From a virus (Duplodnaviria > Heunggongvirae > Uroviricota > Caudoviricetes), in IMG/VR virus record IMGVR_UViG_2526164633_000039: 22,209 nt of DNA; one strand, written 5' to 3'. Position 1 is the stretch's first letter; the number at the start of each line of letters is the position of its first letter. The notes beneath the pieces are model-generated. The model was given only the letters and a program-made list of their open reading frames with translations, was not told the origin of the DNA and did not search any database. Positions 19,990 through 20,602 of the stretch are shown piece by piece. Position numbers and translations under genes: made by a program.

Positions 19990-20205
19990 ATGTACCAGAT
20001 GGAAAAAATCACAACAGGTGTGTCATACACCACGTCAGCGGTGGGAACGGGCTACTGGTTCCTGCAGTTGCTGGACAGGGTTTCCCCGTCTCAGTGGGCG
20101 GCAATAGGCGTGCTGGGGAGTCTGCTGTTTGGGCTGCTGACATATCTGACTAACCTGTATTTCAAAATCAGAGAGGACCGTCGTAAGGCGGCGCGGGGAG
20201 AGTAA
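19990..20205 (+). CDS. Holin, S21-type (pinholin-like), with dual-start motif MYQM
   Basis: Start chosen at the internal ATG at 19990 of track ORF 19912..20205. Protein [71 protein letters not shown] has two TM segments and a charged C-terminus. Confidence 0.75.
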
Positions 20206-20209
20206 AGCG

Positions 20210-20554
20210 ATGAAGAAAAAATACGAACTGGTTGTTAAAGGGATAAATAATTACCCGAATAAGATTACTGTTACTGTGGCACTGGAAATTGGTGGGTATC
20301 CGTCACTGTTGTTGCCAGATGTGGCGATTAGTCTTGACCGTACTGAAGATGCCACGCTGGAGTTTTACGAAGCTGAGGCGAAAAAGCAGGCGAAGCAGTT
20401 TTTCATGGATGTTGCTGCCGGGTTATGTGAAGGGGATGGTCCGTTGCCGGAAAAGCGCCCCGTAATTTTAGAGGCGCAGGATGTGTTGATAACCTACAGA
20501 GGAAAACTACCGGGAATAATTACTGGTTCTCTGAAGACTCCACCGCTGGCCTGA
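20210..20554 (+). CDS. Hypothetical 114-aa protein sitting where an endolysin would be expected
   Basis: GGAG-containing RBS. No lysozyme or peptidase motifs recognised. Lower GC than neighbours. Lies directly before the second IS copy. Confidence 0.45.
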   Translation: MKKKYELVVKGINNYPNKITVTVALEIGGYPSLLLPDVAISLDRTEDATLEFYEAEAKKQAKQFFMDVAAGLCEGDGPLPEKRPVILEAQDVLITYRGKLPGIITGSLKTPPLA

Positions 20555-20602
20555 AGACTTAACATATCCAGGGATTTGAAATCGATAAACCCTGATAAAT
20601 AG

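What the first reader, a model, noticed from the sequence alone, without database searches (positions are those of the whole stretch)
19990..20602. Holin with dual-start motif followed by a non-lysozyme 114-aa ORF
MYQM offers two starts three codons apart, the classic holin/antiholin arrangement. The gene that follows has no recognisable endolysin features and has lower GC, so it may be a moron or unknown cargo inserted at the lysis cassette, directly beside the IS.
Basis: inference. Interest (0 to 1): 0.3.

Follow-up and report, generated by a model that had tools for sequence, protein, structure and literature searches.

The report
Pinholin, YdfR gene, IS-cut lysis cassette
This is the ordinary front end of a lambdoid prophage lysis cassette: a phage-21-type pinholin gene followed by a common accessory gene of the YdfR/DUF1327 family. 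An insertion sequence landed 3 bases before the endolysin start codon, which is why no lysozyme gene follows.

Summary
Bases 19990-20205 encode a 71-aa phage-21-type class II holin (PF04971, E 9e-33) that begins MYQM. Bases 20210-20554 encode a 114-aa protein that is not an endolysin.

That protein is not unknown cargo. It is a full-length YdfR/DUF1327 family member (PF07041, E 2.4e-45). The exact sequence is very common in E. coli/Shigella assemblies, where it always lies in the order S, YdfR, 177-aa lysozyme, Rz. H-19B, BP-4795 and K-12 Qin have the same order.

The lysozyme is missing here because a degenerate IS66-family element starts at 20602, 3 nt before where R's ATG lies in relatives. 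The IS did not bring the gene in.

YdfR is an optional accessory. It is in about 23% of phage records that carry this holin type and is absent from DLP12. Distant homologues sit in other late-operon slots, so "moron-like" is a fair description.

Its function is unproven. The best lead is a 2026 report that K-12 YdfR residues 1-72 bind the RNase E catalytic half and co-purify RNA.

The two Met codons are conserved, but MYQM lacks the basic residue that gives S21-71 and S107 their antiholin character.

Verdict: already known, low interest.

The parts
19922..19960 (+). Intrinsic-terminator-like hairpin (12-bp stem plus T run) between the NanS-p-like esterase gene and S. It would normally be read through by Q-modified RNA polymerase.
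   Evidence: terminator scan: 5 found against 0.8 expected. Read-through by Q is inferred from established lambdoid late-operon biology.
19990..20205 (+). S gene: a 71-aa phage-21-type class II holin (pinholin type). Met1 is at 19990 and Met4 at 19999. It has a weakly hydrophobic G/S/T-rich segment (aa 7-27), a strong TMD (aa 36-58) containing G40/S44/G48, and a basic C-terminal tail.
   Evidence: PF04971, E 9e-33; alignment with BP-4795, Qin EssQ, DLP12 EssD; hydropathy.
20210..20554 (+). ydfR-like gene: a 114-aa YdfR/DUF1327 family protein, soluble and cytoplasmic. Module A (aa 1-74, bases 20210-20431) is the conserved beta-beta-beta-alpha core. Module B (aa ~78-112) is the EKRPxILEAQ...GKLPGxITGSLKTPP tail, which is modelled with low confidence.
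   Evidence: PF07041, E 2.4e-45; phrog_406 positions 1-113 of 114; modules; AlphaFold2 models; 47% identity to K-12 YdfR over aa 1-74; dN/dS about 0.26.
20206..20405 (+). Allele-swap segment: the module A coding region is only 54.5% nt identical to the otherwise ~98.5% identical prophage of FDAARGOS_1059. It is of the H-19B/BP-4795 type instead. This segment is also where the low GC lies.
20555..20601 (+). Remnant of the ydfR-R intergenic spacer. The last 8 bases (GATAAATA, 20594-20601) are the presumptive IS66 target site. In relatives, TCC and then the ATG of R follow directly.
   Evidence: alignments with BP-4795, 08_3449 and FDAARGOS_1059. The 8-bp target size is inferred from the other IS copy.
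20602..22209 (-). Transposase-distal end of an IS66-family (ISCro1-like) element, running off the window. The transposase gene is broken into ORFs of 398, 98 and 90 aa. It is 95.7% identical, with 6 gap positions, to the intact copy at 11612-14315.
   Evidence: the intact copy's transposase matches NF033517 at E 3e-142.

Best explanation
The region is the promoter-proximal part of a lambdoid prophage lysis cassette of the S - YdfR - R - Rz type, cut by an insertion sequence.

(1) S encodes a phage-21-type pinholin. By analogy with S21-68, TMD2 would oligomerise into small holes that depolarise the membrane and release a SAR endolysin. The conserved Met1/Met4 pair probably yields two products. 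Because the MYQ extension carries no basic residue, any antiholin effect of the longer form is uncertain.

(2) The 114-aa gene is a native, translationally close-coupled but optional resident of the S-R gap. It is a small soluble YdfR/DUF1327 protein made with the late genes. It is not a lysis enzyme and is not needed for S21/R21-type lysis. Its most likely role (inferred, about 35%) is that of a late-expressed accessory factor whose conserved N-terminal domain binds the catalytic half of host RNase E and/or RNA, tuning RNA turnover late in infection.

(3) An IS66-family element inserted 3 nt upstream of R's start codon. This separated the endolysin and spanin genes from S-ydfR, or replaced them, so the cassette as seen is incomplete and the prophage is probably lysis-impaired.
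For: Shown:
- Family assignments.
- S - YdfR - lysozyme (177 aa) - Rz order in BP-4795, E. coli 08_3449, FDAARGOS_1059, WS3294A and K-12 Qin, and in all 8 long contigs that carry the identical 114-aa protein.
- Exact junction...GATAAATA|GTAAGCGG in the window against ...GATAAATATCCATG(R) in relatives.
- The other IS copy in the window is a clean insertion with the 8-bp duplication GTTGATCC.
- The gene is optional: 101 against 434 phage records (Stx1a 41/47, Stx2c 15/17, Stx2a 2/124). It is absent from DLP12 and from L010, where the lysozyme gene follows the holin gene directly.
- Distant 72-76-aa homologues lie between tail genes M and L, or after I. A 145-aa homologue lies between the Q gene and the holin gene. 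All are on the late-operon strand.
- Purifying selection between deep alleles, dN/dS about 0.26.
- No TMD or signal sequence.
- A confident beta3-alpha core, pLDDT 75-95 for aa 1-70.

From the literature: K-12 YdfR residues 1-72 gave bacterial two-hybrid signals with RNase E 1-597. Strep-YdfR co-purified Rne 1-598 and DNase-resistant nucleic acid. Its overproduction did not affect growth (PMC13232886). The window protein is 47% identical to K-12 YdfR over exactly that region.
Against: - The RNase E/RNA link rests on one study of a 47%-identical paralogue, using overexpression. Its authors caution that a contaminant could explain the RNA, and overexpression changed few transcripts.
- No structural relative supports RNA binding. 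The dsRBD hits have E about 1 and are not significant.
- Residues 75-114 are modelled with pLDDT below 50, so half of the anatomy is uninterpreted.
- The window ends inside the IS, so whether R/Rz lie beyond it, or were deleted by IS-IS recombination, is unknown.
- No significant start-region RNA structure was found (z = -1.26), and use of both starts is untested.
Confidence: 0.8

Rival explanations
1. The 114-aa protein is a dedicated lysis regulator of S21/R21-type cassettes. For example, it could be a cytoplasmic antiholin that binds the holin's cytoplasmic tail (as T4 RIII does), or a factor controlling SAR-endolysin release. This could compensate for the missing basic residue in the MYQM start.
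For: The position between S and R is fixed in hundreds of E. coli prophages. The gene lies 4 nt after the holin stop, with its Shine-Dalgarno sequence inside S. The MYQM holins inspected (BP-4795, FDAARGOS_1059, WS3294A, window) all have a ydfR-type gene downstream.
Against: - Qin has an MKSM holin and also carries ydfR. Most Stx2a phages have this holin type without ydfR (2 of 124), so there is no strict correlation.
- Distant family members sit among tail genes, far from any lysis gene.
- Overproduction of K-12 YdfR has no growth phenotype.
- Phage 21-type lysis needs only S, R and Rz/Rz1 (established knowledge; DLP12 layout).
Confidence: 0.12
2. It is a moron-type gene serving phage-host or phage-phage conflict (anti-defence or superinfection exclusion), with the RNase E contact incidental.
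For: - Presence/absence polymorphism and occupancy of several classical moron slots.
- Two deeply diverged alleles of module A (54.5% nt identity, dS about 1.6) swapped into otherwise ~98.5% identical prophages.
- Modular shuffling of tails B and C.
- Somewhat lower GC.
- A very narrow taxonomic range: 97 representatives among 1.84 billion proteins.
Against: - No match to any PADLOC model.
- No own promoter or terminator was found; it is embedded in the late operon, so it would not be expressed in the lysogen the way conversion morons are.
- There is no experimental hint of such a function.
Confidence: 0.2
3. The 114-aa ORF is a non-functional or spurious reading frame, left over or created next to the IS.
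For: No assigned function. The C-terminal 40 residues are modelled as disordered.
Against: - It is a full-length match to a 114-position PHROG profile.
- The identical protein is listed in 3856 index blocks of public assemblies.
- dN/dS is about 0.26 between alleles.
- The ORF ends 47 nt before the IS and is identical in length to IS-free relatives.
Confidence: 0.02

Closest known systems
Phage 21 S21 pinholin (S21-68 holin / S21-71 antiholin); K-12 homologues EssD (DLP12) and EssQ (Qin); S of H-19B, 933W and BP-4795
   Same: - 71 aa, PF04971.
- 79-80% identical to EssQ and EssD, 96% to BP-4795 S and 100% to the FDAARGOS_1059 holin.
- A weak SAR-like first hydrophobic segment, a strong TMD2 with G40/S44/G48, and a basic tail.
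- Met1 and Met4 are conserved.
   Different: The residues between the two Mets are Tyr-Gln rather than Lys-Ser, so the extra positive charge credited with antiholin behaviour (PMC9636201) is absent. In this window no SAR endolysin gene follows.
YdfR of the E. coli K-12 Qin prophage (P76160, b1555; Pfam DUF1327)
   Same: Same family and the same position between the S-type holin (essQ) and the lysozyme (rrrQ). 47% identity over aa 1-74, the part reported to bind the RNase E N-terminal half.
   Different: K-12 YdfR is 103 aa with an unrelated C-terminal tail. The window protein carries module B (EKRP...TPP) instead. Other relatives add a further ~70-aa coiled-coil-like module C, giving 176 or 183 aa.
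ORF47 of phage BP-4795 and the unannotated S-R ORF of Stx1 phage H-19B (YdfR family protein)
   Same: 97.4% identical, 114 aa, same flanks. These show the intact arrangement S - YdfR - 50 nt - R.
   Different: They differ from the window protein at three residues (N17D, D47G, V85I). Those phages have no IS, and R follows.
Lambdoid 'morons' (extra genes inserted between conserved late genes, such as lambda bor/lom or stx downstream of Q)
   Same: Optional presence, occurrence in several inter-gene slots of the late operon, and mosaic allele exchange.
   Different: No own promoter or terminator was detected. The gene is translationally close-coupled to S. The GC difference is small.
IS66 family, ISCro1-like elements (tnpA-tnpB-tnpC)
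   Same: Terminal GTAAGCG. The intact window copy has all three ORFs, an IS66 transposase match (NF033517) and an 8-bp target duplication. RefSeq annotates the near-identical elements as ISCro1 family.
   Different: The copy next to ydfR is 4.3% diverged with frameshifts, so it is a pseudogene. Only one end of it is visible.

Membership tests
P21 holin S family (class II holin / pinholin, PF04971) | Sequence match above the curated threshold over the full length | tested here: met
   112.5 bits against a cut-off of 26; aa 5-67 match profile positions 1-63 of 64. PHROG holin families at E 2e-40.
P21 holin S family (class II holin / pinholin, PF04971) | Two hydrophobic segments (a weakly hydrophobic SAR-like TMD1 and a strong TMD2 with a G40xxxS44xxxG48-type face) and a charged C-terminal tail | tested here: met
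   The Kyte-Doolittle maximum is 1.70 for aa 36-54. The aa 7-27 segment is G/S/T/A-rich and stays below 1.0. G40, S44 and G48 are present. The tail reads [13 protein letters not shown]. The significance of the motif is from my recollection of the S21 literature.
P21 holin S family (class II holin / pinholin, PF04971) | Partnered with a SAR endolysin gene immediately downstream | tested here: not met
   In the window an IS starts at 20602 where R should begin. Relatives have a 177-aa Phage_lysozyme gene there, but I did not check it for a SAR domain.
Dual-start holin/antiholin motif (lambda S107/S105, S21-71/S21-68) | Two in-frame start codons a few codons apart | tested here: met
   ATG at 19990 and 19999. 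Both Mets are invariant in 6 homologues.
Dual-start holin/antiholin motif (lambda S107/S105, S21-71/S21-68) | The longer product carries an additional positively charged residue at the N-terminus | tested here: not met
   The extension is Met-Tyr-Gln, with no Lys or Arg. Qin and DLP12 have MKSM and L010 has MRM. The requirement is as stated in PMC9636201.
Dual-start holin/antiholin motif (lambda S107/S105, S21-71/S21-68) | Both starts used in vivo, with the ratio set by an mRNA structure | tested here: inconclusive
   The predicted hairpin over the start region is not better than shuffled sequence (z = -1.26). Actual start usage cannot be tested with these tools.
YdfR / DUF1327 (PF07041) | Sequence match above the curated threshold, full length | tested here: met
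   153.1 bits against a cut-off of 25. phrog_406 positions 1-113 of 114. 97% identical to proteins that NCBI names 'YdfR family protein'.
YdfR / DUF1327 (PF07041) | Located between an S21-type holin gene and the lysozyme gene of a lambdoid prophage | tested here: met
   The upstream neighbour is S. The downstream spacer is colinear with relatives up to 3 nt before R's ATG, where the IS begins.
YdfR / DUF1327 (PF07041) | Binds the N-terminal catalytic half of RNase E and co-purifies RNA (reported for K-12 YdfR only) | not testable with these tools
   Only homology is available: 47% identity over the implicated residues 1-74.
Endolysin (lysozyme, transglycosylase, amidase or peptidase) | Recognisable catalytic domain or fold | tested here: not met
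   No such Pfam or NCBIfam hit. No PDB sequence hit. The best PDB Foldseek E-value is 0.28.
Moron (accessory gene inserted in a phage late operon) | Present in some and absent from other closely related phages, between conserved genes | tested here: met
   101 against 434 phage records. DLP12 and L010 lack it in the S-R gap. Homologues occur in the M/L, post-I and Q/S slots.
Moron (accessory gene inserted in a phage late operon) | Own promoter and terminator allowing expression from the repressed prophage; deviant base composition | tested here: not met
   No flanking promoter or terminator apart from weak consensus hits. It lies 4 nt from the S stop. GC is 46.7% against a window mean of 50.0% and 47.2% in the left half.
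IS66 family insertion sequence | tnpA-tnpB-tnpC, GTAAGCG termini, 8-bp target duplication | tested here: met
   Met for the intact copy at 11612-14315. For the copy at 20602 only one terminus and a frameshifted tnpC are visible.

The most novel reading that the evidence does not exclude
YdfR/DUF1327 proteins may be a narrowly distributed class of phage late-operon accessory factors. Their ~72-aa beta3-alpha domain would dock on the catalytic domain of host RNase E, and perhaps on RNA, to reshape RNA decay during the late phase. Interchangeable alleles and C-terminal modules (B, C) would retarget or regulate them. Their frequent placement between S and R would then couple their dose to lysis-gene expression rather than reflect a lysis function.
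Probability: 0.3. Interest if true: 0.5.

Novelty: already known. Interest (0 to 1): 0.15.

Why it matters
For annotation, it removes a false lead. The non-lysozyme ORF after the holin is the normal YdfR-family gene of H-19B/BP-4795/Qin-type cassettes, and the missing endolysin is explained by an IS66 insertion 3 nt before R.

For biology, the points of wider interest are modest:
- This prophage's lysis cassette is physically broken, which bears on whether it can still lyse its host and release particles.
- The MYQM class of S21-type holins lacks the charge that defines the known antiholins, and this has not been tested.
- YdfR remains a functionally open family carried by most Stx1a and Stx2c phages, with a recent RNase E lead.

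Tried and rejected
- Endolysin or known-fold hypothesis for the 114-aa protein. Pfam, NCBIfam and PADLOC gave only DUF1327. PDB sequence search gave nothing. Two AlphaFold2 models were made (11- and 28-sequence alignments; the core is confident, the tail is not). Foldseek against PDB and BFVD gave no hit below E 0.001. Recurrent dsRBD, NTF2-like and de novo beta-sheet hits at E 0.3-2 were judged noise.\n- 'IS-borne cargo'. Rejected because the gene and its 47-nt downstream spacer are colinear with IS-free relatives.\n- 'IS truncated or extended the ORF'. Rejected: 114 aa is the native length.\n- An sdi-like mRNA hairpin controlling the two starts. The fold is not distinguishable from shuffled sequence.\n- Finding the source genome or what lies beyond the IS. 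The junction is absent from 5426 complete E. coli genomes. The only place covering at least 80% of the junction query was a two-piece match in NCCP 13717, spread over 639 bp with a glycoside hydrolase gene under it, so it is a different arrangement. The junction is also absent from GTDB species representatives.\n- Strong GC anomaly. The difference is real but lies within the prophage's own range.\n- Deeper homology. A profile search of 1.84 billion representatives found only 97 proteins, all of the same small family, so no link to a characterised family emerged.

Full report
**Observation**

Window 19990-20205 (+) is a 71-aa [74 protein letters not shown], with in-frame ATGs at 19990 and 19999. 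It matches Pfam PF04971 'Bacteriophage P21 holin S' (E 9e-33, 112.5 bits against a cut-off of 26) and PHROG holin families (E 2e-40). Four bases after its stop, 20210-20554 (+) encodes 114 aa. An IS66-type terminus (GTAAGCGG...) starts at 20602.

**The holin**

- It is 96% identical to S of phage BP-4795, 100% identical to the holin of the FDAARGOS_1059 prophage, and 79-80% identical to K-12 EssQ and EssD.
- Hydropathy shows one strong TMD (aa 36-58, containing G40, S44 and G48). An N-terminal G/S/T/A-rich segment stays below the usual TMD threshold. The tail is basic. This is the layout known for pinholin S21-68; that interpretation comes from established S21 literature and from PMC10462455, which classes the Stx-phage S proteins as P21-family pinholins.
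- Met1 and Met4 are invariant in all six homologues compared, so a double start is plausible.
- The review PMC9636201 attributes the antiholin behaviour of S107 and S21-71 to an additional positively charged N-terminal residue. Qin and DLP12 have M-K-S-M and a distant prophage has M-R-M, but this gene has M-Y-Q-M.
- A hairpin spanning the starts is predicted, but it is no better than shuffled sequence (z = -1.26).
- The motif is therefore present in form, while its classic holin/antiholin function is unverified for this allele class.

**The 114-aa protein**

- It is a full-length YdfR/DUF1327 member: PF07041 at E 2.4e-45 and phrog_406 positions 1-113 of 114.
- It has no lysozyme, amidase or peptidase signature and no defence-system match. 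It has no TMD or signal peptide and no PDB relative by sequence.
- AlphaFold2 with a 28-sequence alignment gives a confident beta-beta-beta-alpha core (aa 5-73, block pLDDT 75-95) and an unconfident tail (aa 76-114, pLDDT below 50).
- Foldseek against PDB and BFVD finds nothing below E 0.001.

**Context in relatives**

- BP-4795, E. coli 08_3449, FDAARGOS_1059, WS3294A and the K-12 Qin prophage all show S, then YdfR, then a lysozyme gene, then (after optional inserts) Rz.
- The identical 114-aa sequence is listed in 3856 index blocks of public assemblies. In all eight long contigs displayed it is flanked by a 71-aa PF04971 holin and, 50 nt downstream, a 177-aa Phage_lysozyme gene.
- H-19B, the classical Stx1 phage, carries it at 97.4% identity. 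The ORF is thus a long-sequenced, named, but uncharacterised resident of this cassette type.

**Why no endolysin follows**

Alignment with BP-4795, 08_3449 and FDAARGOS_1059 shows colinearity through ...CCCTGATAAATA (window 20601). Relatives then continue TCC-ATG (the start of R), whereas the window continues GTAAGCGGCTCG....

That sequence is the transposase-distal end of an IS66-family, ISCro1-like element. A second, intact copy lies at 11612-14315. It has the 8-bp target duplication GTTGATCC and interrupts a DUF968 gene that is whole in FDAARGOS_1059.

The copy beside ydfR is 95.7% identical to the intact one, has six gap positions, and carries a transposase reading frame broken into three pieces. 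The window ends inside it, so R and Rz may lie beyond it or may be lost. This junction is absent from 5426 complete E. coli genomes and from GTDB species representatives.

**Is it cargo?**

Partly yes.

- S21-type holins occur in 434 phage records and DUF1327 homologues in 101. These comprise 41 of 47 Stx1a, 15 of 17 Stx2c and only 2 of 124 Stx2a phages.
- DLP12 has essD directly followed by rrrD. A distant prophage (L010) also has holin then lysozyme, with its 145-aa DUF1327 homologue sitting instead between the Q-type antiterminator and the holin.
- Single-domain 72-76-aa homologues lie between tail genes M and L (L007, L008, L012) or after tail gene I (L011).
- The family is tiny: 274 clusters at 90% identity, nearly all of those named by a source being Escherichia/Shigella, and 97 representatives among 1.84 billion proteins.
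- It is modular. Core A (aa 1-74) occurs alone, with the K-12 tail (103 aa), with tail B (114 or 116 aa), or with B plus a coiled-coil-like C (176 or 183 aa). B also occurs behind a C-like N-terminus.
- In the FDAARGOS_1059 prophage, which is 98.5% identical over 6.2 kb, the segment 20206-20405 is only 54.5% identical to the window while its flanks are 96% and 91% identical. This is a sharp allele swap.
- Between these alleles dN/dS is about 0.26, so the gene is under purifying selection.
- GC is 46.7% against 54.2% (S), 53.0% (esterase gene) and 50.0% (window), but the left half of the prophage averages 47.2%.
- No private promoter or terminator is evident.
- The gene is therefore an optional, mobile late-operon accessory, and it is unrelated to the IS.

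**Likely function**

The only experimental evidence I found is PMC13232886 (RNA Biol 2026).

- The first 72 codons of K-12 ydfR were recovered three times in a bacterial two-hybrid library screen with RNase G (Rng) as bait, and gave stronger two-hybrid signals with RNase E.
- Full-length YdfR gave signals with Rne 1-597.
- Strep-YdfR co-purified Rne 1-598 and DNase-resistant nucleic acid.
- Overproduction changed few transcripts and did not affect growth.
- The authors add caveats about possible contaminants.

The window protein is 47% identical to K-12 YdfR over aa 1-74 and unrelated beyond that. I therefore favour, at about 35%, a late-expressed RNase E/RNA-binding accessory role. A lysis-regulator role gets about 12%; the tail-module homologues, the many ydfR-less S21 cassettes and the lack of toxicity argue against it. 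A conflict-type moron role gets about 20%. The remaining probability is open.

**Comparison and verdict**

The holin is a member of the P21 S family, of the H-19B/933W MYQM allele class. The second gene is a member of YdfR/DUF1327, of the H-19B/BP-4795 allele. The disruption is a standard IS66-family insertion. Nothing here is new in kind.

Its interpretation is partly supported: the protein is not an endolysin and is optional cargo-like, but it is not unknown, it was not brought by the IS, and the dual start lacks the defining basic residue. Interest is low.

The residual open questions are the function of YdfR, whether MYQM holins have an antiholin form, and whether this prophage can still lyse.

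Noticed in passing
window 11612-14315 (flanks 11604-11611 and 14316-14323): Intact IS66-family (ISCro1-like) element carrying tnpA, tnpB and a 523-aa tnpC on the minus strand. 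It is flanked by the 8-bp target duplication GTTGATCC and splits a DUF968 gene that is uninterrupted in FDAARGOS_1059.
   Followed up: yes
window 14316-20601: Two IS66 copies in the same orientation bracket RusA, the Q antiterminator, a DNA methyltransferase, three tRNAs, the NanS-p-like esterase, S and ydfR. This is a composite-transposon-like layout that could promote deletion or mobilisation of the whole late-regulatory block.
   Followed up: partly
window 20206-20405: Sharp mosaic boundary. This part of ydfR is 54.5% nt identical to the FDAARGOS_1059 prophage, while the adjacent holin end (96%) and ydfR 3' part (91%) are nearly the same. Two deep alleles of the DUF1327 core circulate in otherwise near-identical prophages.
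   Followed up: yes
window 16140-17198 and 17239-17488: Downstream of Q, where Stx phages carry stx, this prophage has a DNA methyltransferase (PF01555). It is followed by three tRNA genes (CAU anticodon, called Met by ARAGORN but Ile in RefSeq relatives; Arg-TCG; Arg-TCT). No stx genes are present in the window.
   Followed up: partly
window 17564-17754 (+), 9734-9908 (+), 4422-4473 (-): Rfam matches above gathering thresholds: sRNA STnc100 between the tRNAs and the esterase gene, a sok antitoxin RNA (hok/sok locus), and DicF antisense RNA.
   Followed up: no
window 8500-9531 (+): A 343-aa SIR2-like protein in the early region, with weak matches to PADLOC SIR2-type defence models (E about 4e-6). 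It could be a prophage-borne defence gene.
   Followed up: no
window 17977-19839 (+): A 620-aa DUF1737 + SASA esterase + DUF6645 protein, the NanS-p-type sialate O-acetylesterase typical of Stx and related prophages just upstream of S.
   Followed up: partly
window 19922-19960 (+): Strong terminator-like hairpin (12-bp stem, T run) immediately upstream of the S ribosome-binding site. The 97-aa ORF that starts at 19912 runs through it and is unlikely to be real.
   Followed up: partly
P0010, P0067, P0085, P0089 (proteins); P0001, P0002: Database entries that fuse holin and DUF1327 (about 184-187 aa), or that contain internal duplications of DUF1327 (169 or 196 aa). Each is seen on only one contig, so they are probably frameshift, assembly or gene-calling artefacts rather than real fusions.
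   Followed up: no
L007 4001-4219, L012 511-741, L011 1636-1866: Single-domain (72-76 aa) DUF1327 genes sit inside lambdoid tail modules, between gpM and gpL or after gpI. In two of the three loci (L011, L012) a small opposite-strand ORF lies just downstream. This placement is a recurrent accessory slot.
   Followed up: partly
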